From: a phage
NCBI GenBank assembly: GCA_023732985.1
Contig: GCA_023732985.1_3946.1
Strand: one strand, 5' to 3'
Length of the DNA: 64,000 nt
Part shown: positions 38,928-49,406 of the stretch, piece by piece
Layout of the letters: each line of letters begins with the position of its first letter
Position numbering within the stretch: the first letter of the stretch is position 1
Program-made: the position numbers and the translations under genes
The notes under the pieces: model-generated
Told to the model about the DNA's origin: nothing
Databases searched by the model: none
Seen by the model: the letters and a program-made list of their open reading frames with translations, nothing else

Positions 38928-38978
38928 AGTTTTCTCCTTAGAAAATAAAAAAGGCTCCCGAAGGAGCCTATGAAGATA

Positions 38979-39443
38979 TTACTTTGGATATACACTGTCA
39001 AGATAAATGTCAGCTTCCATTCTACGTCTGTTTTTCAGGCCGTTTGAAGTGACCTTCTTACCTTTTACTGTAACCTTGTTCCACCACTGCATAGCTTCTG
39101 CACAACCGACCTTATTACCAGCATTGTGGCGCTTGATAAATGTGGAATCCTGCATAGCTGTGATACCGATGTTGTATGTTTCACTTACAAGTGCATCGAA
39201 CTCATTCTGAGAAGTTGGAACCTTGATGGCTTTGTTCACTGCTGCAACGAACTTTTCAACATCTGCAAGAAGATACTGTTCAGCTTGTTCAGCGGTAATC
39301 TTCATACCCATCTTAACAGGCTTCCCACCAATACGAATTGTCCCATACCCAATTGTGGGGATTCCAGCAGAATCTTCGTAAGCCTCAAGCTTAAGACCTT
39401 CAAAGAACTTAATAGCTTCTAAACCTTTTCTTGAGAGTTGCAT
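38979..39443 (-). CDS. phage lysozyme (T4 lysozyme-like endolysin)
   Basis: N-terminal LEAIKFFEGLKLEAYEDSAGIPTIGYGT, the catalytic Glu and TIGYG motif of phage lysozymes. Confidence 0.8.
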   Translation of the reverse strand: MQLSRKGLEAIKFFEGLKLEAYEDSAGIPTIGYGTIRIGGKPVKMGMKITAEQAEQYLLADVEKFVAAVNKAIKVPTSQNEFDALVSETYNIGITAMQDSTFIKRHNAGNKVGCAEAMQWWNKVTVKGKKVTSNGLKNRRRMEADIYLDSVYPK

Positions 39444-40327
39444 TATGCCTCCCCTGCTGGGTTAACAGTAACTGTTGCAGCATTAGACGTTACAGAACCA
39501 CCTGCACCAGTCACTACACAGGTGTAGCTTCCTGAATCAGCAGCGGTTGCACCTTCTTTGGTGTAAGTTGCAGTAGTTGCATCGAGGATGTCTTCCTCAC
39601 CTTTCTTCCACTGGTAACCTGTCGCACCTGTTGCCACAACATTCAGCGTTAAGGTTTCACCTTCAGTGATTTCTTGATTGGTTGGCTGTTGAGTGATTAC
39701 TGGAAGTGCATTCACAGTCACTGTTGCTGCATCTGAGGTAACACTTGTTCCACCCTCTCCAGATACAACACAAGTGTATGAACCAGCATCAGAAGGTGCT
39801 ACTGACTGTTTTGTGTAAGTTGCAGAATTGGCACTAGGGATATCCTCACCATCCTTCTTCCACTGATACCCAGTGGCGTTAGTTGCTAGAATGCTTAGGG
39901 TAAGTGTGCCACCCTCATTGACTGTTTGACCTGTTGGTTGCTGAGTAATTGCTGGTGGCTTGATAGCATCCTTCAGCTTAGCATTCAACATTGAGAACGG
40001 CTTAACTCTTGCCAACCATTCACAGTAAATAGTGTCAACATCTTTACCATTGATGATTGCATACTGCAAATCCATGAAGAAATCAGCAGTTCTCATCTGT
40101 GCACCAACACTGTAAAGGAGTTCATCACTAAAAGGAACTTTATAGTCTGGTTTATAGTCAAACTTCTCAACTTCTGCAATATCAGCTTCAGGCCAATACG
40201 AGCTATAGGTAAGTGGTAAAATAGCCTCTTGATATGTTCTAAAATCATATCTCTTACCAGCCTTTACGTTTGCAATGAAGCCCTTCACAAACTCTTTGAA
40301 GTCTGGGTAAGTCTTTGCTTTAATCAT
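39443..40327 (-). CDS. protein with two tandem Ig-like repeats
   Basis: two ~85 aa repeats (ITQQPT...ATGYQWKK...SYTCVV...ATVTVN); N-terminal domain is paralogous to the next ORF. Confidence 0.6.
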   Translation of the reverse strand: MIKAKTYPDFKEFVKGFIANVKAGKRYDFRTYQEAILPLTYSSYWPEADIAEVEKFDYKPDYKVPFSDELLYSVGAQMRTADFFMDLQYAIINGKDVDTIYCEWLARVKPFSMLNAKLKDAIKPPAITQQPTGQTVNEGGTLTLSILATNATGYQWKKDGEDIPSANSATYTKQSVAPSDAGSYTCVVSGEGGTSVTSDAATVTVNALPVITQQPTNQEITEGETLTLNVVATGATGYQWKKGEEDILDATTATYTKEGATAADSGSYTCVVTGAGGSVTSNAATVTVNPAGEA

Positions 40328-40695
40328 TTCTTTTCAGCCTCTAAATGTGCGTTTAGTCTAAAATAACCTTTGTGGTGTGGAGATACATCACCAACAACAA
40401 TGCCTTTAACCTTATAACCTTTACCAATTACATACTGAATATCCATAAGGAATCTCCCAAGACCAACAATATGGAACATTGGATATAATAGGTTCTCAGA
40501 GTCTGGAATATTGATTTCAGGTTTGTAGGTGTGTTGTTTGCTTGTTGGTGTAATATCTTCTTCAGGCCATTTACTGAGTCTCCATGTCAAAGGTGTTGGG
40601 ATAACATCATTAAGGTTGTACCTTTCACCATTTTGCACGGAATTGATATAGGATTGTAGGAAGCAATAAAAGTCTTTTGCACTCTTAGCTTTCAT
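40324..40695 (-). CDS. hypothetical protein, paralog of the N-terminal domain of the Ig-repeat protein
   Basis: shared MIKAK/MKAKS start, YKP, FLMDIQYVI / FFMDLQYAI segments. Confidence 0.5.
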   Translation of the reverse strand: MKAKSAKDFYCFLQSYINSVQNGERYNLNDVIPTPLTWRLSKWPEEDITPTSKQHTYKPEINIPDSENLLYPMFHIVGLGRFLMDIQYVIGKGYKVKGIVVGDVSPHHKGYFRLNAHLEAEKK

Positions 40696-40742
40696 TAAAT
40701 ATCCTTATAAATAGTTAAAGGGGCTGATGCCCCTATTCACAC

Positions 40743-41333
40743 TTAAGCTTTGGTCTTAAGTAGGTTTTTAAGTTTTTTAAGATTCATACTCTCATCAAAC
40801 TTAAAACCAAATCCATTGACATAATCAATGAACTCGGATTTCTTACTGAGTGACAATGCGTAACTCATATCGAAGTTCTTACTTGTTTCTGCGTCTGGAC
40901 TAGAGTTCACATCAAATGAAATTTCTGTAGGTTCTTGCTTACTTTTTCTCATATTATCAACCAACAAACATGTATAGTTTGCTGGATAGAAGTTTACACT
41001 ACCATCAACGTATCTGTACTTATTATTATGGATAAGGTTTGAAAATACCTTAAGAAATGTTTCTGAGTCGTGGCAAACAAGTTTGAATTGGCTGCTCTCT
41101 CCAAGCGCAACTAATGAGTACGGACTTTCACTATCAAAGTCATAATTTGGATTCGATGGCGTCACTGTTACACGCATCAAGTTATTAGCGATAGTCTTCT
41201 GTTTAAAAGAATTTTGAACATAGTGAAGACCTCTATCACACTGATTGACTAGCTCTTTAAGTAGGTCATTTGCATATGGTGAATTAATTGATACAGAGCC
41301 ATCACTATTGTAATTAAAACTTACTGTTAACAT
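40743..41333 (-). CDS. hypothetical protein
   Basis: minus-strand ORF. Confidence 0.5.
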   Translation of the reverse strand: MLTVSFNYNSDGSVSINSPYANDLLKELVNQCDRGLHYVQNSFKQKTIANNLMRVTVTPSNPNYDFDSESPYSLVALGESSQFKLVCHDSETFLKVFSNLIHNNKYRYVDGSVNFYPANYTCLLVDNMRKSKQEPTEISFDVNSSPDAETSKNFDMSYALSLSKKSEFIDYVNGFGFKFDESMNLKKLKNLLKTKA

Positions 41334-41952: not shown

Positions 41953-42324
41953 ATGAAAAACAGAACAAACAAAGGCCAGTTTAAAAAAGGCCAGTCTGGA
42001 AACCCATCTGGAAGACCAAAAGGCTCTCGTAACAAAAGCTCACTTGTAAAAGCTCAACTGACCATTGATAATTCTGCTGAGTTTGCTGCAAAGTTGTTTG
42101 AAGCAATTGTTACAAGGGATGCTGCTAAGCTTGCAGAGTTCGGGTTAAACACAGACGACGTAACCATCAAGAGCATGATTGAGGTCGGTAAAACTATCAT
42201 GACTCACTCAGCAGGTGAGATGAAAGCCATTGCAGCAGACACTAAGAAGACTCCTGATAACGGTGGTCAGTCTCAGACAGATAACAAACCAACGTTCTCT
42301 GCTGTAGCAACTCTTAAAAAATAA
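41953..42324 (+). CDS. hypothetical protein with N-terminal GQFKKGQSGNPSGRPKG motif
   Basis: Gly/Pro-rich basic N-terminal motif; function unknown. Confidence 0.55.
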   Translation: MKNRTNKGQFKKGQSGNPSGRPKGSRNKSSLVKAQLTIDNSAEFAAKLFEAIVTRDAAKLAEFGLNTDDVTIKSMIEVGKTIMTHSAGEMKAIAADTKKTPDNGGQSQTDNKPTFSAVATLKK

Positions 42325-42405: not shown

Positions 42406-43821
42406 ATGAGCGAATTATTTAAACATGCGCACCTTCATGCAGGTCGAACTGAAAATGGTGCTGTAAACCATACTTCATCAATGTCTGCTCTTGTAGACTT
42501 TTACAAAGCTGCTGGTTCAAGCCGTAGCAACGTAGAAATCTTACCAGACCTGTTCTACAAAGCTTTGCGTGAGGATGTTGATGTTGCAGTTCGTATTTTA
42601 CTGCATATGCGAGATGTACGAGAAGGCATGGGTGAGCGTAAAGCCTTCAGAACTGTTTTGCTTCAAGCGATTGAAGACAAAGTTTTAGAGTCTACGCAGG
42701 TTCTTCGCATTATGGATAAGATTGCAGAACTTGGTCGTTTTGATGACTTCAAAATCTTCGTGGGTACTCGTTTCGAGACAGATGCCTTCAAGCATTTAGA
42801 AGCAGCATTACTAGACCCTGCAACAGCAGGTTTGGCAGCTAAGTGGTTACCACGAGTCAAACCACGTCATAAGCAGTTTGTAAAACGTTTCTGCAAGTTT
42901 GCCAACTTGAGTGAGAAAGAGTACCGCACACTATTGTCTGCACTATCTGATACAGTTGAGCAAAAAATCTCTGCTAATGAGTTTGGTAAGATTGACTACA
43001 GTAAGATTCCTTCACTTGCTGCTGCACGTTACCAAAAACTGTTTAACCGTAAAGATGGAGAGCGTTACAAAGCTTACATCGAGTCCTTATCAAAAGGTGA
43101 GACTAAGATTAACGCTGGTGCTGTTTACCCATACGATGTGATTAAATCTGTCAAGTGTGGTAATGCAGATGTTGCTAATGAGCAGTGGAAAGCACTACCA
43201 AACTGGATGGCAGAAGGTGAAAACATCTTGTGTATGTCTGATGTATCAAGTTCAATGTCTTGGGTGAATTTTGGCTCCATTACTGCTCTGGATATTGGCG
43301 TATCACTTGCCTTGTATGTAGCAGAACGCAATACAGGTTGCTTTAAGAATGAGTTGATGGTTTATTCGACAAACCCTCACTTCATCGAACTGAGTGGTGA
43401 TTTACGAAACCGTCATCGTCAGGTGATGCGACACGTTGAATATGGCTCAACTAACTTACAAGCAGCTTTTGACCGCATTCTTGAAACAGGTAAAAGAAAC
43501 AACTTGACTCATAAAGATATGCCAAGTAAGCTTATCATCTTCTCCGATATGGAGTTCAATCAGGTTGATGGAGCTAACGGTCGTACAAACTTTGAAGCAA
43601 TTCAGAGTAAGTACAAAAAAGCTGGATATGAGATGCCACAACTGGTATTCTGGTACTTAGCAAACCGTAATGGTACTTGCGAAGTATCTGTTAAGGATAA
43701 CGGTGTAGCAATGGTATCAGGGTTCTCTCCAGCCACTTTAAAAGCTCTGCTTGGTGGTGAGAAGTTTGACCCAATCAGTGTAATGCTCAAAGCAGTAATG
43801 ATTGACCGTTATATCTGGTAA
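42406..43821 (+). CDS. vWA-domain protein with MIDAS motif (possible Ro60-like RNA-binding protein)
   Basis: helical N-terminal ~280 aa then vWA region with DVSSSMS (DxSxS); Ro60-like assignment is inference. Confidence 0.6.
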   Translation: MSELFKHAHLHAGRTENGAVNHTSSMSALVDFYKAAGSSRSNVEILPDLFYKALREDVDVAVRILLHMRDVREGMGERKAFRTVLLQAIEDKVLESTQVLRIMDKIAELGRFDDFKIFVGTRFETDAFKHLEAALLDPATAGLAAKWLPRVKPRHKQFVKRFCKFANLSEKEYRTLLSALSDTVEQKISANEFGKIDYSKIPSLAAARYQKLFNRKDGERYKAYIESLSKGETKINAGAVYPYDVIKSVKCGNADVANEQWKALPNWMAEGENILCMSDVSSSMSWVNFGSITALDIGVSLALYVAERNTGCFKNELMVYSTNPHFIELSGDLRNRHRQVMRHVEYGSTNLQAAFDRILETGKRNNLTHKDMPSKLIIFSDMEFNQVDGANGRTNFEAIQSKYKKAGYEMPQLVFWYLANRNGTCEVSVKDNGVAMVSGFSPATLKALLGGEKFDPISVMLKAVMIDRYIW

Positions 43822-43986: not shown

Positions 43987-44060
43987 CTCTGTTTAGCTCA
44001 GCTTGGTAGAGCGTTCCGTTTGGGGCGGTAAGGCCGGAGGTTCAAGTCCTCCAACAGAGA
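43987..44060 (+). tRNA. tRNA-Pro (anticodon TGG)
   Basis: hand-folded cloverleaf; acceptor CTCTGTT/AACAGAG; anticodon loop TTTGGGG; CCA encoded. Confidence 0.6.
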
Positions 44061-44070
44061 CCAAATTAAT

Positions 44071-44145
44071 GTTCCAGTGGACAAAATGGTAAAGTCACCA
44101 CTCTTTCAAAGTGGATATTTGAGGGTTCAAATCCCTTCTGGAACG
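44071..44145 (+). tRNA. tRNA-Glu (anticodon TTC)
   Basis: acceptor GTTCCAG/CTGGAAC; anticodon stem CCACT/AGTGG, loop CTTTCAA. Confidence 0.7.
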
Positions 44146-44155
44146 CCAGTTTTGA

Positions 44156-44226
44156 CAGAAGACCAATTACAGCAAACTTAATCTTATTCATCTGAAGGTA
44201 AATCGGACAAAGAAGAGATTTGGTCT
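44156..44226 (+). ncRNA. tRNA-spacer hairpin element, copy 1
   Basis: CAGAAGACCAATTACAGCAAACTT ... TTGGTCTGG; closing stem AGACCAA/TTGGTCT. Confidence 0.4.
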
Positions 44227-44239
44227 GGTCATTAAGAAT

Positions 44240-44313
44240 TGCGGGTATAGAGAAAGGGCGTCTCACATGTCTCATTAGCATGGTATCGGCAGGTTCGACT
44301 CCTGCACCCGCCT
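44240..44313 (+). tRNA. tRNA-Met (anticodon CAT)
   Basis: T-arm GCAGG-TTCGACT-CCTGC; anticodon stem CATGT/GCATG, loop CTCATTA. Confidence 0.6.
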
Positions 44314-44329
44314 CCAAATTTACAGAAGA

Positions 44330-44384
44330 CCGTTTACAGCAATACTTATTAAATTTTTAGCGGAAAAATTGAAAGATACGGTCT
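44330..44384 (+). ncRNA. tRNA-spacer hairpin element, copy 2
   Basis: closing stem AGACCGT/ACGGTCT with conserved TTACAGCAA. Confidence 0.4.
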
Positions 44385-44399
44385 GGTAATACTAAACAT

Positions 44400-44472
44400 G
44401 GTTAGGAAGCACATAAGGTATGTGCGGTCGCCTGTTAAGCGAATGGCACAGGGTTCGAATCCCTGACTAACC
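44400..44472 (+). tRNA. tRNA-Asn (anticodon GTT)
   Basis: T-arm CAGGG-TTCGAAT-CCCTG; anticodon loop CTGTTAA. Confidence 0.6.
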
Positions 44473-44485
44473 GCCAAATTAAATG

Positions 44486-44569
44486 TGTCGTTATCCCGTA
44501 GATGGTAGCGGTGGGGACTGTAAATCCCTTGTCATTGAGACTCGGTAGGTTCGACTCCTACACGGCACA
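44486..44569 (+). tRNA. tRNA-Tyr (anticodon GTA), long variable arm
   Basis: 84 nt; acceptor GTGTCGT/ACGGCAC; anticodon loop CTGTAAA. Confidence 0.6.
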
Positions 44570-44577
44570 CCAATAAA

Positions 44578-44651
44578 GGCTATGTAGTTTAACTGGAGAA
44601 AATACTCCCCTGTCACGGGAGATGATGTGAGTTCAAGTCTCATCGTAGCCG
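44578..44651 (+). tRNA. tRNA-Asp (anticodon GTC)
   Basis: acceptor GGCTATG/CGTAGCC; anticodon stem CTCCC/GGGAG, loop CTGTCAC. Confidence 0.7.
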
Positions 44652-44719
44652 CCAATTTTGAGAGGGCTATTTAGCTCCTCCCTTAAAGAGTTCTTACGAG
44701 TATTCTTTAAAGGAGCAGA

Positions 44720-44787
44720 AGACCAAATACAGCAAGAATGTATGAAATTTCAAGCCAATTTAATTTTGAAAATTTAAAACTTGGTCT
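44720..44787 (+). ncRNA. tRNA-spacer hairpin element, copy 3
   Basis: closing stem AGACCAA/TTGGTCT with conserved ATACAGCAAG. Confidence 0.4.
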
Positions 44788-44806
44788 GGCTCAACAAATT
44801 TACAGA

Positions 44807-44932
44807 AGACCGTTTACAGCAAAACTTAAACAATCTATTTCTCCGGTAAAGAAAAGGCGAAGGTTCGATTCCTTCACTCGGCAGATGTCGAGTTGGTGTA
44901 ATGGTAGCACTTAAGATGATAAACAACGGTCT
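44807..44932 (+). ncRNA. tRNA-spacer hairpin element, copy 4, carrying a permuted tRNA-like module (candidate Y RNA-like tRNA mimic)
   Basis: closing stem AGACCGTT/AACGGTCT; inside, T-arm GAAGG-TTCGATT-CCTTC, then ACTCGGC, AGAT loop, GTCGAGT (7 bp acceptor-like helix), then D-arm-like GTGTAATGGTAGCAC. Confidence 0.4.
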
Positions 44933-44940
44933 GGTAATTA

Positions 44941-45072
44941 TCTTTGTAGATAAGTTATTAAGCTTACCTGTGAGTATGCGACCACAAAGGGTGAAGGGTA
45001 AATTCTAGATTTAAACCTAAAAGGCACATCGCTACAGACCTTAAGCAAGTCTGGGTAGCTTATCTACAAAGA
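44941..45072 (+). ncRNA. structured element closed by a 14 bp perfect inverted repeat
   Basis: TCTTTGTAGATAAG ... CTTATCTACAAAGA enclosing about 105 nt. Confidence 0.35.
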
Positions 45073-45080
45073 TAATTTAA

Positions 45081-45154
45081 TGGAAGTGTAGCAGAATGGT
45101 GATGCGGCAGACTTTTAATCTGACAGGCGATGGGTTCGAATCCCTCCACTTCTA
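45081..45154 (+). tRNA. tRNA-Lys (anticodon TTT)
   Basis: acceptor GGAAGTG/CACTTCT; anticodon loop CTTTTAA; paralog of the tRNA at 46672. Confidence 0.6.
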
Positions 45155-45161
45155 CCAATAT

Positions 45162-45234
45162 GGTTCAGTCGCAGATAAGGTAATGCAAGGGTCTCATAAG
45201 CCCTATGAATGTGGGTTCGATTCCCATCTGAACC
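45162..45234 (+). tRNA. tRNA with CAT anticodon (Met, fMet or Ile2)
   Basis: acceptor GGTTCAG/CTGAACC; anticodon stem AGGGT/GCCCT, loop CTCATAA. Confidence 0.65.
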
Positions 45235-45240
45235 TCCAAT

Positions 45241-45312
45241 TGTGGGTTAGCATAAATGGTAATGCAAACGGCTGATAACCGTTAGAAGAGGGTTCGATAC
45301 CCTCACCTACAA
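45241..45312 (+). tRNA. tRNA-Ile (anticodon GAT)
   Basis: acceptor TGTGGGT/ACCTACA; anticodon stem AACGG/CCGTT, loop CTGATAA. Confidence 0.65.
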
Positions 45313-45330
45313 CCAATTTCAATAAAGTTG

Positions 45331-45359
45331 TTGACATTGAGATGTGACTACTTTATAGT
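45331..45359 (+). promoter_or_regulatory. sigma70-like promoter
   Basis: TTGACA, 17 bp spacer, TATAGT. Confidence 0.5.
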
Positions 45360-45368
45360 AACCTTAGT

Positions 45369-45427
45369 TTTCGTTGCGTAGCGTCTATTTTGCAAATTTA
45401 AAATAAATGCAAACGACAATGTTTTTC
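45369..45427 (+). ncRNA. candidate small RNA (promoter to T-tract)
   Basis: about 60 nt between the promoter and an imperfect hairpin ending TGTTTTT; no ORF. Confidence 0.3.
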
Positions 45428-45563
45428 TGGCAGTAGCTTGATAGGCTAAACACCAGTGAGGTCTTCCAATCCCTCATCAAAGAATTTGGCGTACTCGCCC
45501 ACGGTATGATTAATAAGGTGGGCATCTTTAAGGGCTTTCTAAGAGAGTCTTTAAAGATAATTA

Positions 45564-45642
45564 CGGGGCGTATCTCAGCGGTCTTCTAAACCGCCGTTAA
45601 CCGAGTAAGTGGAGTATGCGGGTTCGAGTCCTGCCGCCTCGA
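45564..45642 (+). tRNA. tRNA-like gene, non-canonical fold, isotype unresolved
   Basis: 7 bp acceptor CGGGGCG/CGCCTCG and T-arm GCGGG-TTCGAGT-CCTGC, but D and anticodon arms could not be placed by hand. Confidence 0.35.
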
Positions 45643-45659
45643 CCAATTTTGGAGAAATC

Positions 45660-46007
45660 ATGAAAACTTGTATTAGGTGCAAACTTAGCAAGGATGAAAA
45701 TGATTTCTACATGAAAGATGGTAGGAGAACTCATTCATACTGTAAAAAGTGTGTTAATGAGCAAACCATAGAAAGACAAAGAGCACTTAAACTCTTAGCT
45801 ATTGAGTACAAAGGTGGGGTTTGTCATGATTGTGGTAAGAAGTATCATCCAGCAGTGTATGACTTCCATCATTTGAATCCTTCAGATAAAGATTTTAACA
45901 TTGGTCATAGGAAAAGCCTTAAGTTCTCTCAAGAACTAAAAGATGAACTTGACAAATGTGTTTTGCTATGTTCAAATTGCCATAGGGTAAGACATGCAAA
46001 ATATTAG
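45660..46007 (+). CDS. HNH homing endonuclease
   Basis: ATG at 45660 (track start overlaps the tRNA-like gene); CxxC pairs plus DFHHLNP...LLCSNCHRVRH. Confidence 0.65.
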   Translation: MKTCIRCKLSKDENDFYMKDGRRTHSYCKKCVNEQTIERQRALKLLAIEYKGGVCHDCGKKYHPAVYDFHHLNPSDKDFNIGHRKSLKFSQELKDELDKCVLLCSNCHRVRHAKY

Positions 46008-46144
46008 TTAGCAGATTACTTAGACGGCCTTAGCGGGTCTTCCTGTAGGGAGGTGGTCTGTATCTCATGTTTTCCAGAACATGTAAATAATCTGAGAAGG
46101 AGCTTGACAGTGTTGAGATAATACGGTAAGCTTCGAATTATAGT

Positions 46145-46224
46145 ATGGGACGATGTTAAGACTCTAAGGCATGAGCAACGGCTTCCAACACCGTTTCAAA
46201 GGGGTTCAACTCCTCCGTCCCATG
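46145..46224 (+). tRNA. tRNA-like gene, non-canonical fold (possible CCA anticodon, Trp)
   Basis: 7 bp acceptor ATGGGAC/GTCCCAT and T-loop TTCAACT; D region about 6 nt too long; candidate anticodon loop TTCCAAC. Confidence 0.35.
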
Positions 46225-46240
46225 CCAAAGTCTTATTAGG

Positions 46241-46328
46241 GGTAGGTAGCGGCTAATGGTAGCCAAACTGTCTTGAAAACAGTTGCCACTGTAGAGATAC
46301 GGTGAGGGTTCGACTCCTTTACTTACCG
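46241..46328 (+). tRNA. tRNA-Ser (anticodon TGA), long variable arm
   Basis: 88 nt; acceptor GGTAGGT/ACTTACC; anticodon stem ACTGT/ACAGT, loop CTTGAAA. Confidence 0.6.
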
Positions 46329-46586
46329 CCTAATAAGATTTTAAAGCCAAGCTTCATTCGGATGTTGCTTTGGTATCCCTCGTGTATTGTCGTACACACT
46401 GATAAAACACCTAGTAGGTGTCACGGAGAAGAGATAATATCAAGCTCTCCAAAGGTTCTAGTCACCGGATTAAACAAGACTATGCAAAGACCTTTTTAGG
46501 TCTTTTTAGAGGGCTTCTAAGGTTATTACGGCTTGTTGTGGAACCTTGTTGCTTAGGTTCTTAGAAGTTCTCTAAAAAGATTTAAT

Positions 46587-46661
46587 GGGAGATTGACGGT
46601 AATTGGTAAACCTATCTCGCTTAGAACGAGATGTTTGAGGGTTCGAATCCCTTGTCTCCTA
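46587..46661 (+). tRNA. tRNA with TAG anticodon (Leu-type) but short variable arm
   Basis: anticodon stem ATCTCG/CGAGAT (6 bp), loop CTTAGAA; T-arm GAGGG-TTCGAAT-CCCTT; variable region 5 nt. Confidence 0.5.
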
Positions 46662-46671
46662 CCAAATTAAT

Positions 46672-46745
46672 GCAGGTGTAGCAAAATGGTTATGCGGCTG
46701 ACTCTTAATCAGTAAGACGATGGGTTCAATTCCCTCCACCTGTAC
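46672..46745 (+). tRNA. tRNA-Lys (anticodon CTT)
   Basis: paralog of the 45081 tRNA with a compensatory anticodon-stem change; loop CTCTTAA. Confidence 0.55.
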
Positions 46746-46752
46746 CAAAAAT

Positions 46753-46825
46753 GGGGTCATAGTTTATATGGTTAAAATTCGAGTTTTGCAAACTTGGGAA
46801 CTGAGTTCAATTCTCAGTGACTCCA
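46753..46825 (+). tRNA. tRNA-Ala (anticodon TGC)
   Basis: G3:U70 pair in acceptor GGGGTCA/TGACTCC; anticodon loop TTTGCAA. Confidence 0.6.
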
Positions 46826-46834
46826 CCAATTAGT

Positions 46835-46906
46835 GCATCCATAGTTTAAACGGGAAAATTACAGTCTTCCAAACTGAGGTTGAGGGTTCGATTCCCTCTG
46901 GATGCT
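46835..46906 (+). tRNA. tRNA-Gly (anticodon TCC)
   Basis: acceptor GCATCCA/TGGATGC; anticodon loop CTTCCAA. Confidence 0.65.
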
Positions 46907-46916
46907 CCAAATTAAT

Positions 46917-46989
46917 GCTCCTATCGTATAATTGGCTATTACGGTTGCCTTGTAAGCAACTTATCAGGGTTCGAATCCTTGTGGGAGCA
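46917..46989 (+). tRNA. tRNA-Thr (anticodon TGT)
   Basis: anticodon stem GTTGC/GCAAC, loop CTTGTAA; T-arm CAGGG-TTCGAAT-CCTTG. Confidence 0.65.
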
Positions 46990-47087
46990 CCAATTCAGAG
47001 GTCAAGTGAAAGACCGCTGGTGTCAACTGAAGACCGTAACAAATTCCACGGAGTTGAGTTAGCGGCACAACTTCAGACCTCTTTCAC

Positions 47088-47159
47088 ACTCGCTTAGTTT
47101 ATATGGTAAAACATCACCCTTACAAGATGAAGAAAAAGGTTCAAGTCCTTTAGTGAGTA
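47088..47159 (+). tRNA. tRNA-Val (anticodon TAC)
   Basis: D-stem GTTT/AAAC; anticodon loop CTTACAA; T-arm AAAGG-TTCAAGT-CCTTT. Confidence 0.55.
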
Positions 47160-47163
47160 CCAT

Positions 47164-47239
47164 GTTCCAGTATCCCAATTGGCAGAGGATGCAAGCTCAA
47201 ACCTTGTATTAGTGACGGTTCGAATCCGTCTTGGAACAC
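47164..47239 (+). tRNA. tRNA with CAA anticodon (Leu-type) but short variable arm
   Basis: anticodon stem TGCAAG/CTTGTA, loop CTCAAAC; T-arm GACGG-TTCGAAT-CCGTC. Confidence 0.5.
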
Positions 47240-47355
47240 CAATTTTAGGAGAACACTATGAGCAATAAGTCAATTGCAAAAAAGTTTAGAGCGTCATACC
47301 TAAACAGACGTAAAAACAAAGTTTGTGAAAAACTGTATGGTGTTCTCGTAGGTAA

Positions 47356-47428
47356 GCAGGATTAGTTCAAATGGATAGAGCAACAGTCTACGAAGCTGTT
47401 AATAGGGGTTCGAATCCCTTATCCTGCA
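47356..47428 (+). tRNA. tRNA-Arg (anticodon ACG)
   Basis: perfect acceptor GCAGGAT/ATCCTGC; anticodon loop CTACGAA. Confidence 0.65.
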
Positions 47429-47450
47429 CCAATTTAAAGAGGCTATTTAG

Positions 47451-48008
47451 ATGAGATATTTGAAGTATGCTTCATGGATTTTCTTAGCTTTGTTAGAGCC
47501 ATTTGCAGCAATCTTAGCAGTTATCTTAGCACCTTTTGTAGTTCCATTCTACAGTGAGAAGAAAGGACACTTACCTTTCGGGTTCAGATGGATGGAGACA
47601 TATGACAACCCAATTGATGGTGATGAAGGTCACGTTAAAAGATGGGCTAATATTAGATGGATTGGTAAACTAGGTGTCTACATGCAAAGAGTCGGATGGC
47701 TCTGGAGAAACAAAGCTTATAACTTCTCTTACCATGTATTAGGAAGAGATGTAAGAGATGTTACTAAGTGGAAAGGTAATATCAACGTAAGTTCTAACCC
47801 TGAAGATAATCAGACTGGTTATCTCCTAATGTGGAACAGTAATGCTTGGGGATTATTCGCTTTTATCCCATCAATTAAAGTCTTCGGTAAACAGTTTTAC
47901 TGGAGAATTTATGTTGGATGGAAACTTAAAAGTGTTGTCCCAGAAGAAAGAGCATTCTCAAGGGAAAGAGTTATGTTGGCATTCTTTATTCATCCACTGA
48001 GAAAGTAA
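47451..48008 (+). CDS. hypothetical membrane protein inside the tRNA cluster
   Basis: AAGAGG RBS; N-terminal hydrophobic segment. Confidence 0.45.
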   Translation: MRYLKYASWIFLALLEPFAAILAVILAPFVVPFYSEKKGHLPFGFRWMETYDNPIDGDEGHVKRWANIRWIGKLGVYMQRVGWLWRNKAYNFSYHVLGRDVRDVTKWKGNINVSSNPEDNQTGYLLMWNSNAWGLFAFIPSIKVFGKQFYWRIYVGWKLKSVVPEERAFSRERVMLAFFIHPLRK

Positions 48009-48016
48009 AGATTTAA

Positions 48017-48090
48017 AGGGGATTAGTTTACAAGGTTAAAACCTAGGTCTTTGAAATCGAAGAAGTTGGTTCAATTCCAACATCCCCCGC
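48017..48090 (+). tRNA. tRNA-Gln (anticodon TTG)
   Basis: T-arm GTTGG-TTCAATT-CCAAC; anticodon loop CTTTGAA; stem has one mismatch. Confidence 0.5.
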
Positions 48091-48094
48091 CAAT

Positions 48095-48169
48095 GCTCCA
48101 TTACTCCAATTGGCAGAGAGGCCAGACTTAAAATCTGTGTTATGTATCGGTTCGAATCCGATATGGAGT
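48095..48169 (+). tRNA. tRNA with TAA anticodon (Leu-type) but short variable arm
   Basis: acceptor GCTCCAT/ATGGAGT; T-arm ATCGG-TTCGAAT-CCGAT; anticodon loop CTTAAAA. Confidence 0.45.
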
Positions 48170-48177
48170 ACCAAATT

Positions 48178-48252
48178 TAGCGGTATAGCATAACTGGCAA
48201 TGCAGCAGTCTCTGAAGCTGTCCTATTAAGGTTCAAATCCTTATGCCGCTGC
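48178..48252 (+). tRNA. tRNA-Gln (anticodon CTG)
   Basis: acceptor AGCGGTA/TGCCGCT; anticodon loop CTCTGAA. Confidence 0.55.
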
Positions 48253-48285
48253 CACTTCTAAGGATTCTTACGAGAGTCCTTAAAT

Positions 48286-48358
48286 GTGGCCTTATCATAA
48301 ATGGTAATGACCCATGCTGTGAACATGGTCTATACGGGTTCAAATCCCGTAGGTCACC
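48286..48358 (+). tRNA. tRNA-His (anticodon GTG)
   Basis: anticodon stem CCATG/CATGG, loop CTGTGAA; acceptor GTGGCCT/AGGTCAC. Confidence 0.65.
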
Positions 48359-48367
48359 CCAATTTAT

Positions 48368-48440
48368 AGTCCAAGTAGCTTATATGGTTAAAGCGCGTGT
48401 CTGAAAAACATGAGAAGAGGGTTCAAATCCCACTGGACTA
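48368..48440 (+). tRNA. tRNA-Phe (anticodon GAA)
   Basis: anticodon loop CTGAAAA; T-arm GAGGG-TTCAAAT-CCCAC. Confidence 0.6.
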
Positions 48441-48459
48441 CCAATTTCAAAGGTGCTTA

Positions 48460-49194
48460 ATGAAAGAGATGACAGAACAAGGTAAGGAGATTTTCAATCT
48501 CTTAAAAACCGGTAAAGGGTTTTCTAACCCCCTTATTACTGGTGCAGCAGTTCTCGGTGGAACCGTAGCTGCCTCTACATCACTTGTAAGCTCTATTAGC
48601 TCTGTATCAGACCCTACAGTAAAGGATAAGCTTGTTGCTGCTGGACTTACAACAGTTCTGCTTAACAGCTTTACCACGAGTCTGACAAGCACTACATCAA
48701 CTACCAAAACACTAACAGATTACGGTCAAAAGTCCATTGATGAGTTTTCATCACGTATGCAGGTAGCAAAAGGTTACTCTAATGTTATGGGTGCAGCAGG
48801 TGAACAAGTTGGCTGTACACCATTTAGTGGTATTATGGGTGTTGCTACAGAGTATGGTCAAAAAACTATTGATACGATTAACAGTGTACTAGATAGTGTT
48901 AATGGTGTGTTAAGTGACTTACAAGATGCTATTGACAAAGGTCTTGATACTATTTCTGATTTAGCTGAGCAAGCTGTTAGTAAGATTAATGAAGGTATTT
49001 CAAAAATTACAGCTTATGCAGATGAAGTTGTGCAGATGATTGAAGAAGAAGCTGCTCTTATTGCAGAGTACCTTAAAACGAATATCAATGGGTTCTTAGC
49101 AGGTATCTTACCAGACTGGTTTGATGATGCTTGTAAAACTGGTGTAATTGACACTATTGCAACACCAGAAATGAAGAACGCATTACAGAAATAA
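48460..49194 (+). CDS. hypothetical protein (Ser/Thr-rich)
   Basis: ATG at 48460, in frame with the track ORF whose upstream part overlaps tRNA-Phe. Confidence 0.55.
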   Translation: MKEMTEQGKEIFNLLKTGKGFSNPLITGAAVLGGTVAASTSLVSSISSVSDPTVKDKLVAAGLTTVLLNSFTTSLTSTTSTTKTLTDYGQKSIDEFSSRMQVAKGYSNVMGAAGEQVGCTPFSGIMGVATEYGQKTIDTINSVLDSVNGVLSDLQDAIDKGLDTISDLAEQAVSKINEGISKITAYADEVVQMIEEEAALIAEYLKTNINGFLAGILPDWFDDACKTGVIDTIATPEMKNALQK

Positions 49195-49196
49195 AT

Positions 49197-49286
49197 GGAA
49201 GATTAACCCTAAAAGGTAAGGGAGCAGTTTGCTAAACTGCCAGTAGCTGAGAAATCGGTGTACCAGTTCAAGTCTGGTATCTTCCT
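49197..49286 (+). tRNA. tRNA-Ser (anticodon GCT), long variable arm
   Basis: 90 nt; perfect acceptor GGAAGAT/ATCTTCC; anticodon stem GCAGT/ACTGC, loop TTGCTAA. Confidence 0.6.
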
Positions 49287-49295
49287 CCAATTTGA

Positions 49296-49368
49296 ATCCG
49301 TGACAGAAACGGCTATGTGCCTGTCTGCAAAACAGGTTTATAAGGGTTCGAGTCCCTTCGGATTCTCC
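49296..49368 (+). tRNA. tRNA-Cys (anticodon GCA)
   Basis: perfect acceptor GAATCCG/CGGATTC; anticodon stem CCTGT/ACAGG, loop CTGCAAA. Confidence 0.7.
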
Positions 49369-49406
49369 AAGTTATTTTACTCTCTCTCAATTAAAATAAT
49401 AATAAT

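What the first reader, a model, noticed from the sequence alone, without database searches (positions are those of the whole stretch)
39443..40695. Ig-like tandem-repeat protein with a duplicated N-terminal domain, adjacent to the endolysin
The 294 aa minus-strand protein has two ~85 aa Ig-like repeats. Its first ~120 residues are paralogous to the neighbouring 123 aa ORF (40324-40695), pointing to a local duplication followed by fusion to the Ig repeats. Ig-like domains in phages are usually on virion surface proteins, so its position in a non-structural block next to the lysozyme is unusual; it could be a cell-wall-binding partner of the endolysin or an accessory adhesin.
Basis: partly seen in the sequence, partly recalled or inferred. 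Interest (0 to 1): 0.45.

Follow-up and report, generated by a model that had tools for sequence, protein, structure and literature searches.

The report
Known Felix O1 capsid decoration protein
The 294-residue protein is the already characterised Hoc-like protein that plugs the centres of capsid hexamers in Felix O1-type phages and displays Ig-like domains outward; only its small Ig-less neighbour copy appears undescribed in the papers I could search.

Summary
ORF 39443-40327(-) has a ~122-aa N-domain plus two Ig-like domains that are 66-67% identical. The adjacent 123-aa ORF 40324-40695(-) is a significant paralogue of that N-domain (38% identity, E 3e-16).

The window is a Felixounavirus, and the protein is the orthologue of Bas63 Hex-Dec (PDB 9NCF chain S), Sf14 gp20 (9C2D chain S) and Felix O1 gp36. 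Cryo-EM places the N-domain of those orthologues in the centre of the 60 pentamer-adjacent hexamers of the T=9 capsid. Virion mass spectrometry detected Felix O1 gp36 and Sf14 gp20. It is therefore a capsid structural protein encoded about 15 kb from the head genes, which the Bas63 paper already noted. It is not an endolysin partner.

It lies next to the lysozyme because paralogue, Hex-Dec and endolysin form one overlapping-gene unit bounded by hairpins.

The residual novelty is the paralogue (Felix O1 gp37):
- It is expressed late in Felix O1 and is under purifying selection (dN/dS 0.11-0.18).
- It lacks the Arg79 capsid anchor.
- It was not detected in Felix O1 virions.
- It has decayed in some relatives and is dispensable in SUSP1.

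Its role is unknown.

The parts
39962..40327 (-). Hex-Dec capsid-binding domain (CapBD), aa 1-122 of the 294-aa protein; contains Arg79 and Arg107
   Evidence: About 97% identical to the modelled part of 9ncf_S; E 1e-247 for the whole protein. The Sf14 paper names Arg79 and Arg107 as salt-bridge anchors to capsid protein Asp221, and both are present here. dN/dS is 0.02-0.04.
39704..39955 (-). Ig-like domain 1 (aa 125-208)
   Evidence: Pfam Ig_3, I-set and Ig_2. 90.5% identical to Bas63 Ig domain 1.
39446..39703 (-). Ig-like domain 2 (aa 209-294); the stop codon is at 39443-39445
   Evidence: Pfam Ig_2 209-288. 94.2% identical to Bas63 Ig domain 4, the last one. This is therefore the two-Ig variant, like Felix O1 gp36.
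40324..40695 (-). Stand-alone CapBD paralogue, 123 aa (orthologue of Felix O1 gp37, Sf14 gp21, Bas63 0125, SUSP1 agp126; phrog_4463)
   Evidence: Paralogy. Its TGA stop overlaps the Hex-Dec ATG as ATGA. dN/dS is 0.11-0.18. Gly replaces Arg79 in all paralogues. pI is 8.9, against 5.5 for the CapBD.
38979..39443 (-). Endolysin (T4-type phage lysozyme). Its ATG overlaps the Hex-Dec TAA stop as TAATG.
   Evidence: Pfam Phage_lysozyme 6.7e-41; phrog_7; sequence.
40720..40733 (-). Conserved hairpin GGGGC-N4-GCCCC upstream of the paralogue, followed by a T-rich stretch and the ribosome-binding site AAGGA
   Evidence: The stem is invariant and the loop variable in six phages. It is listed as a rho-independent terminator in Felix O1.
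38952..38969 (-). Intrinsic terminator that closes the paralogue/Hex-Dec/endolysin unit
   Evidence: A 7-bp GC-rich stem followed by TTTTTTATTTT. It is annotated as a terminator in phage KhF2.
55511..56617 (+). Major capsid protein, the binding partner of the CapBD; Asp221 is present
   Evidence: E 1e-245 to 9ncf_A. The KIRDAYL motif with D221 is conserved.

Best explanation
Identity. ORF 39443-40327(-) encodes the Felixounavirus hexamer-centre capsid decoration protein. Its names in the literature are Hex-Dec, 'Hoc-like', Felix O1 gp36 and Sf14 gp20.

Mechanism shown for orthologues. One monomer inserts its N-terminal ~120-aa capsid-binding domain into the central depression of each of the 60 pentamer-adjacent hexamers of the T=9 head. 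It is anchored by Arg79 and Arg107 salt bridges to Asp221 of the major capsid protein. The C-terminal Ig-like domains, two in this isolate, project flexibly from the capsid.

Mechanism inferred. By analogy with T4 Hoc, the acidic Ig string mediates weak adherence to surfaces, glycans or other particles. It is not needed for capsid assembly or growth in the laboratory.

Gene context. The gene is late. It is co-expressed with, and translationally coupled to, an upstream Ig-less paralogue of its own capsid-binding domain and the downstream endolysin. That arrangement explains its position.

The paralogue (inferred, low confidence). It is most likely a derived, truncated copy that keeps the fold but has lost the Arg79 anchor. 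It is made late and is not a stoichiometric virion component. It probably acts as a dispensable accessory factor at or around hexamer decoration, for example as a transient competitor or placeholder for Hex-Dec.
For: Identity:
- The locus has 251 phage matches, essentially all Ounavirinae, the best at 97.9%.
- The protein matches 9ncf_S at E 1.4e-247 and 9c2d_S at E 1.2e-167 over residues 1-290.
- It matches phrog_3995 over its full length at 4e-171.

Location and mechanism in orthologues:
- Bas63 paper PMC12609058: the CapBD sits at hexamer centres on facet edges, the Ig domains are unresolved, the gene lies more than 10 kb outside the structural module, and genomes commonly mis-annotate it as a tail protein.
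- Sf14 paper PMC11821841: gp20 was detected by mass spectrometry, its CapBD is the N-terminal 118 aa, and Arg79/Arg107 pair with gp34 Asp221.
- Felix O1 gp36 was found in virions with 14 peptides and 44% coverage. ORF numbering was verified.

In this window:
- R79 and R107 are present.
- The capsid protein is about 99% identical to that of Bas63 and has D221.

Operon and timing:
- ATGA and TAATG overlaps, an upstream hairpin and a downstream terminator define the unit.
- Felix O1 ORFs 36 and 37 peak at 60 min, together with structural genes.

Dispensability:
- SUSP1 agp125 and agp126 are both 'Not Fit' in CRISPRi-ART.
- The paralogue has decayed in REP10.

Paralogue:
- dN/dS is 0.11-0.18.
- Gly replaces R79 in all paralogues, including one only 45% identical.
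- gp37 is absent from the 17 Felix O1 virion proteins listed.
- No density was reported on the other hexamers in Bas63 or Sf14, both of which encode the paralogue.
Against: - Nothing here was measured on this isolate. Virion location rests on orthologues that are 83-97% identical in the CapBD.
- The function of the Ig domains is only an analogy. The Bas63 authors state that role and essentiality are unknown.
- CRISPRi-ART has an acknowledged false-negative rate, and even the endolysin scored 'Not Fit'.
- For the paralogue, the negative virion evidence is weak. The Felix O1 mass-spectrometry list was filtered at 25% coverage or more. The complete Sf14 mass-spectrometry list could not be read. 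A monomer on a strict 3-fold axis is blurred by icosahedral averaging.
- No experiment bears on the competitor/placeholder idea.
Confidence: 0.85

Rival explanations
1. One reading: the Ig protein is a non-virion cell-wall- or carbohydrate-binding partner of the adjacent endolysin.
For: - The gene is immediately upstream of the lysozyme gene and overlaps it.
- The endolysin is a single catalytic domain with no binding module.
Against: - Orthologues are capsid-bound virion proteins.
- No LysM, SH3 or PG_binding domain was found in Pfam or NCBIfam.
- In Felix O1 the lysin transcript peaks at 25 min, whereas ORF36 peaks at 60 min.
- Endolysins of Gram-negative phages generally need no binding module (general knowledge).
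Confidence: 0.03
2. Database annotation: it is a tail protein, or the 'major tail protein'.
For: - Most GenBank records and PHROG call it 'tail protein'.
- The Ig region hits the Ig appendages of major tail proteins (phrog_158 and phrog_853).
Against: - Cryo-EM of Bas63 and Sf14 places it on capsid hexamers.
- The Bas63 authors explicitly call the tail annotation incorrect.
- The PHROG tail hits cover only the Ig region.
Confidence: 0.03
3. The 123-aa paralogue is a second decoration protein. It would cap the 20 hexamers on the true 3-fold axes that Hex-Dec does not occupy, or bind capsids sub-stoichiometrically.
For: - It keeps the CapBD core, with 28 invariant columns.
- It is late and translationally coupled to Hex-Dec.
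- The Sf14 authors show that Asp221 geometry differs in the 3-fold hexamers. A paralogue with altered anchors (R79 to Gly, net charge +2.9) could suit such a site.
Against: - No density was reported on those hexamers in either phage, and both encode the paralogue.
- It was not among the Felix O1 virion proteins, although proteins of 9.7-13 kDa were detected.
- It has decayed in about 8% of relatives.
Confidence: 0.1
4. The paralogue has no capsid-related role. It is either a slowly decaying duplicate or a protein recruited to an unrelated, possibly host-directed, function.
For: - It is lost in REP10-like phages.
- It has no fitness effect in SUSP1.
- Its dN is 2-8 times higher than that of the CapBD.
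- Its charge is reversed and the anchor residue is lost.
Against: - The reading frame is intact in about 233 of 253 records.
- It is also intact in a lineage only 45% identical, with the same gene order.
- dN/dS of 0.11-0.18 is similar to that of neighbouring genes.
- Start/stop coupling to Hex-Dec is conserved.
Confidence: 0.25

Closest known systems
Bas63 Hex-Dec (PDB 9NCF chain S), Sf14 gp20 (PDB 9C2D/9C3A chain S) and Felix O1 gp36
   Same: - Orthologues: the CapBD is 83-98% identical, and R79 and R107 are conserved.
- Same gene order: paralogue, Hex-Dec, endolysin.
- Same cognate capsid protein with D221.
- C-terminal I-set-type Ig domains.
   Different: Only the number of Ig domains differs: 2 here and in Felix O1, 3 in Sf14 and 4 in Bas63. 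The two domains here correspond to the first and last of Bas63. The Bas63 paper already describes this variation (1-4 domains).
[quoted passage not shown]
   Same: - A monomer at the hexamer centre.
- A string of Ig-like domains projecting from the head.
- Acidic and non-essential, with a proposed adhesion or aggregation role.
   Different: - Domain order is reversed: the Hoc CapBD is C-terminal.
- The CapBD folds are topologically distinct and not detectably homologous. PHROG 'Hoc-like' hits cover only residues 120-292.
- Hex-Dec occupies only 60 of the 80 hexamers.
T5 pb10 (PDB 5LXK) and related hexamer decoration proteins
   Same: [quoted passage not shown]
- Binds at hexamer centres.
- The Ig domain is detectably similar (E 2.8e-12).
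   Different: The capsid-binding domains are unrelated: the pb10 hit covers only residues 133-207. pb10 has a single Ig domain.
Distant CapBD-family proteins (metagenomic P0099-P0103; Yersinia phage P778 'head outer capsid protein'; Pectobacterium phages Arno and Wc4)
   Same: They have a homologous N-terminal CapBD (profile E 7e-10 to 7e-5), always followed by a C-terminal display part.
   Different: The display part is a Big_2-like domain, another Ig type or a Lys/Ser-rich tail instead of I-set domains. Stand-alone paralogues were seen only beside a full-length Hex-Dec gene in Felix O1-like genomes and contigs; the neighbourhoods of these distant proteins were not inspected.

Membership tests
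Ounavirinae Hex-Dec / Hoc-like hexamer decoration protein (294-aa ORF) | N-terminal ~120-aa capsid-binding domain homologous to the solved chains 9ncf_S and 9c2d_S | tested here: met
   E 1.4e-247 and 1.2e-167, aligned over residues 1-290.
Ounavirinae Hex-Dec / Hoc-like hexamer decoration protein (294-aa ORF) | Arg79 and Arg107 anchors, and a cognate major capsid protein with Asp221 | tested here: met
   R79 and R107 are in the translation. The capsid protein at 55511-56617 has D221. The residues are named in PMC11821841.
Ounavirinae Hex-Dec / Hoc-like hexamer decoration protein (294-aa ORF) | One to four C-terminal Ig-like domains | tested here: met
   Two domains by Pfam Ig_3, Ig_2 and I-set; domain boundaries.
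Ounavirinae Hex-Dec / Hoc-like hexamer decoration protein (294-aa ORF) | Conserved genomic position immediately upstream of the endolysin and away from the head module | tested here: met
   Same order in Felix O1, Bas63, VpaE1, Moogle, SUSP1, Sf14 and the metagenomic contig L009.
Ounavirinae Hex-Dec / Hoc-like hexamer decoration protein (294-aa ORF) | Physically present on pentamer-adjacent hexamers of the virion | not testable with these tools
   Shown only for orthologues: cryo-EM of Bas63 and Sf14, and mass spectrometry of Felix O1 gp36 and Sf14 gp20.
T4 Hoc family | Homologous C-terminal capsid-binding domain preceded by N-terminal Ig domains | tested here: not met
   The order is reversed. 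PHROG 'Hoc-like' matches cover only the Ig region, residues 120-292. The Bas63 authors report a distinct topology. The protein works like Hoc but is not a member.
Endolysin cell-wall-binding module or partner | A recognised peptidoglycan- or cell-wall-binding domain (LysM, SH3, PG_binding, CW_7 and similar) | tested here: not met
   Only Ig families in Pfam; nothing relevant in NCBIfam.
Hex-Dec CapBD family (123-aa paralogue) | Sequence and fold homology to the CapBD | tested here: met
   E 3e-16 to the neighbouring gene; E 1e-11 to 9ncf_S; Foldseek prob 1.0 with TM 0.55-0.57, although the model pLDDT is only 62.
Hex-Dec CapBD family (123-aa paralogue) | Arg79 and Arg107 capsid anchors | tested here: not met
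   The Arg79 column is Gly in all paralogues. The Arg107 column is His here, Gln in most and Arg in a few.
Hex-Dec CapBD family (123-aa paralogue) | Presence in the virion | not testable with these tools
   The literature is negative but weak. Felix O1 gp37 is not among the 17 virion proteins listed. No extra hexamer density was reported.

The most novel reading that the evidence does not exclude
The conserved, late-expressed, Ig-less copy of the capsid-binding domain (Felix O1 gp37 family) may be a functional regulator of capsid decoration. A 'headless' decoration-protein paralogue could compete with, chaperone or pre-occupy the hexamer-centre site. That would set which hexamers, or how many, carry the Ig-displaying Hex-Dec. 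Alternatively it could decorate the 20 three-fold hexamers invisibly. I did not find a paralogue-based control of decoration occupancy described for tailed phages in the papers I could search.
Probability: 0.25. Interest if true: 0.45.

Novelty: already known. Interest (0 to 1): 0.2.

Why it matters
For the main feature, the value is corrective. Most genomes label this gene 'tail protein', and its position beside the lysozyme invites wrong functional guesses. It is in fact a structurally solved capsid decoration protein. Its modular N-terminal anchor and variable Ig string are of practical interest for phage display and for adherence models of phage ecology.

The small residual question is why nearly all Felix O1-like phages keep an anchor-domain copy with no displayed cargo, translationally coupled to the real decoration gene. 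Simple experiments could address it, and the answer might reveal how site-selective decoration (60 of 80 hexamers) is set.

Tried and rejected
- **Internal duplication within the CapBD.** The Bas63 paper reports pseudo-C2 lobes. hhalign of the N-half against the C-half of the family alignment gave E 0.18-0.46, so this is not detectable in sequence.
- **Programmed frameshift fusing paralogue and Hex-Dec.** The ATGA overlap has no slippery heptamer. The overlap differs in Moogle and SUSP1 (4 or 8 nt, with an indel). I read it as ordinary translational coupling.
- **A late promoter or shared motif upstream of the paralogue.** Only about 25 nt lie between the hairpin and the ribosome-binding site. 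The strongly conserved 3' end of ORF196 has no second copy in the window. The sigma-70 scan is at chance level.
- **Tandem Repeats Finder on the Ig repeats.** Nothing was found, because the copies are only 67% identical in DNA.
- **Defence or anti-defence and NCBIfam profiles for either protein.** Nothing was found.
- **Virion proteomics for the paralogue.** VpaE1 Table S2 is held only as an image. The Sf14 mass-spectrometry list is only in MassIVE. The wV8 paper gives no list.
- **AlphaFold model of the paralogue.** The alignment is shallow and pLDDT is 62. I used it only for the Foldseek check, not for surface analysis.

Full report
**What is in the sequence**

On the minus strand there are three tightly packed ORFs:
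- a 123-aa ORF at 40324-40695;
- a 294-aa ORF at 39443-40327;
- a 154-aa T4-type lysozyme at 38979-39443.

The stop of the first ORF overlaps the start of the second as ATGA. The stop of the second overlaps the start of the lysozyme as TAATG. Upstream lies a conserved GGGGC-N4-GCCCC hairpin at 40720-40733. Downstream lies a strong intrinsic terminator at 38952-38969.

The 294-aa protein has an N-terminal region of about 122 aa with no Pfam match. It is followed by two Ig-like domains (Ig_3 1.3e-22, Ig_2 3e-18, I-set 1.1e-15). These two domains are 66-67% identical to each other (E 2e-36).

The N-terminal region is 38% identical to the 123-aa ORF (E 3e-16). Each protein hits the other's PHROG family. 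28 alignment columns are invariant across both groups.

**What it is**

The locus matches 251 phage records, almost all Felix O1-like (Ounavirinae), with the best at 97.9% identity.

The 294-aa protein matches two solved chains over residues 1-290:
- 9ncf_S, 'Immunoglobulin-like domain protein' of phage Bas63, E 1.4e-247;
- 9c2d_S / 9c3a_S, 'tail protein' of Shigella phage Sf14, E 1.2e-167.

The papers behind those entries establish the biology:
- In Bas63 (PMC12609058) the protein, named Hex-Dec, is a monomer. [quoted passage not shown]
- Its Ig-like domains are flexible and unresolved.
- The gene is noted to lie more than 10 kb from the structural module.
- It is said to be mis-annotated as 'tail protein' in most genomes.
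- The number of Ig domains varies from 1 to 4 across the genus.
- In Sf14 (PMC11821841) the orthologue gp20 was detected by virion mass spectrometry. Its CapBD is the N-terminal 118 aa. It is anchored by Arg79 and Arg107 to Asp221 of the capsid protein.
- In Sf14 it occupies only the pentamer-proximal hexamers.

In Felix O1 itself the orthologue gp36 (ORF order checked) was found in virions with 14 peptides and 44% coverage.

In this window Arg79 and Arg107 are present. The major capsid protein at 55511-56617 is about 99% identical to that of Bas63 and has Asp221. The beta-tulip decoration protein is at 55100-55477. The two Ig domains here correspond to the first (90.5%) and last (94.2%) of Bas63's four. 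This isolate therefore carries the Felix O1-type two-Ig variant.

**Why it sits beside the lysozyme**

The overlapping start and stop codons and the single downstream terminator indicate one co-transcribed, translationally coupled unit.

Felix O1 RT-PCR data put ORF36 and ORF37 among the genes peaking at 60 min, together with structural genes 51, 53, 63, 64, 72, 73, 76 and 77. ORF38 upstream and the lysin ORF35 peak at 25 min.

No cell-wall-binding domain is present. The 'endolysin partner' reading is not supported. The 'accessory adhesin' reading coincides with what both structural papers propose by analogy with T4 Hoc. That function remains an inference: the Bas63 authors state that role and essentiality are unknown.

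A genome-wide dCas13d knock-down screen in the related phage SUSP1 scored the orthologue agp125 'Not Fit' (fitness -0.39). This is consistent with a non-essential decoration protein, though the method has false negatives.

**The paralogue**

This is the one part not discussed in either structural paper. The words 'paralog' and 'duplication' have zero occurrences in both, and neither Sf14 gp21 nor the Bas63 neighbouring gene is discussed.

*Distribution*
- It is intact in about 233 of 253 related records.
- It is 73-75% identical in Mooglevirus and Suspvirus, with conserved position.
- It is also present, at only 45% identity and with the same ORF195/paralogue/Hex-Dec/lysin order, on an 87-kb metagenomic contig whose Hex-Dec is 54% identical.
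- The duplication is therefore old.

*Selection*
- dN/dS is 0.11-0.18. This is clear purifying selection, comparable to neighbouring genes (0.05-0.19).
- It is much looser than for the CapBD (0.02-0.04).

*Sequence changes*
- It keeps the conserved core motifs WPE-DI, LLY and F-MD-Q.
- It has Gly at the Arg79 position in every paralogue, and His, Gln or Arg at the Arg107 position.
- It is basic (pI 8.9, net +2.9), whereas the CapBD is mildly acidic (pI 5.5).

*Presence in virions*
- Felix O1 gp37 is not among the 17 virion proteins listed, which include proteins of 9.7-13 kDa.
- Neither cryo-EM study reports density on the remaining hexamers, although both phages encode the paralogue.

*Dispensability*
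- SUSP1 agp126 is 'Not Fit' (-0.91).
- In REP10-type phages the gene is a decayed remnant, with ATG changed to ATA and an internal deletion.

*Family size and direction of the duplication*
- A profile search of 1.84 billion cluster representatives found only 12 clusters with this domain.
- All distant ones carry a C-terminal Ig, Big_2-like or Lys/Ser-rich extension.
- The stand-alone copy is therefore most simply a derived truncation. It is unlikely to be the ancestor to which Ig domains were later fused.

*Reading*
My best reading, at low confidence, is a dispensable late accessory factor that is not a stoichiometric virion component. It may act at the hexamer-centre site or on Hex-Dec itself. 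A cap for the 3-fold hexamers, or an unrelated or decaying function, cannot be excluded.

**Comparison with known systems**

The protein is a member of the Ounavirinae Hex-Dec family. All features testable from sequence are met.

It works like T4 Hoc but is not a Hoc family member. The domain order is reversed and the capsid-binding domains are not homologous. It resembles T5 pb10 in architecture, and their Ig domains are detectably similar.

**Verdict**

The finding is real, but the main object is already known and structurally solved. The proposed functional link to the endolysin is not supported. The residual interest lies in the undescribed Ig-less paralogue and is modest.

Noticed in passing
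window 41953-42324 (+): A DUF5681 protein is transcribed divergently from the block studied. Its SUSP1 orthologue agp130 scored 'Fit' (2.43, p 0.008) in the CRISPRi-ART screen, so it is an important gene of unknown function.
   Followed up: no
window 42406-43821 (+) and 43987-49369 (+): A 471-aa protein whose orthologues are annotated 'RNA-binding protein' lies directly upstream of a cluster of 25 tRNA genes.
   Followed up: no
window 40720-40733 (-): The hairpin GGGGC-N4-GCCCC has an invariant stem and a variable loop in six phages. It marks a temporal boundary in Felix O1: the upstream ORF38 peaks at 25 min and the downstream ORF37/36 at 60 min. No recognisable promoter lies in the ~25 nt before the ribosome-binding site.
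   Followed up: partly
window 40743-40797 (-), 3' end of the 196-aa ORF: The last ~55 nt of this ORF are almost invariant at DNA level across genera, although dS for the gene exceeds 1. This may be an embedded regulatory element. No second copy exists in the window.
   Followed up: partly
L004 2805-2998 (Escherichia phage REP10): The paralogue gene survives only as a remnant, with the start codon changed to ATA and an internal deletion. Hex-Dec and the endolysin are intact. The same single-hit pattern is seen in REP6, REP12, P54 and Z31.
   Followed up: yes
L009 4001-5726 (metagenomic contig ERZ28599557 scaffold_93, 87 kb): A divergent Felix O1-like phage has the same paralogue/Hex-Dec/endolysin order. 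Its paralogue is 45% and its Hex-Dec 54% identical to the window, which dates the duplication before this split.
   Followed up: yes
GenBank GU169904 'Staphylococcus phage SA1', 143196-143558: A 147-kb record labelled as a Staphylococcus phage carries a Felix O1-like copy of this locus. It looks like a mixed or chimeric record.
   Followed up: no
Proteins P0099-P0103 (metagenomic); Yersinia phage P778; Pectobacterium phages Arno and Wc4: Distant homologues of the capsid-binding domain are fused to other display parts: Big_2-like domains, another Ig type, or a Lys/Ser-rich tail. The anchor therefore appears to be a reusable module.
   Followed up: partly
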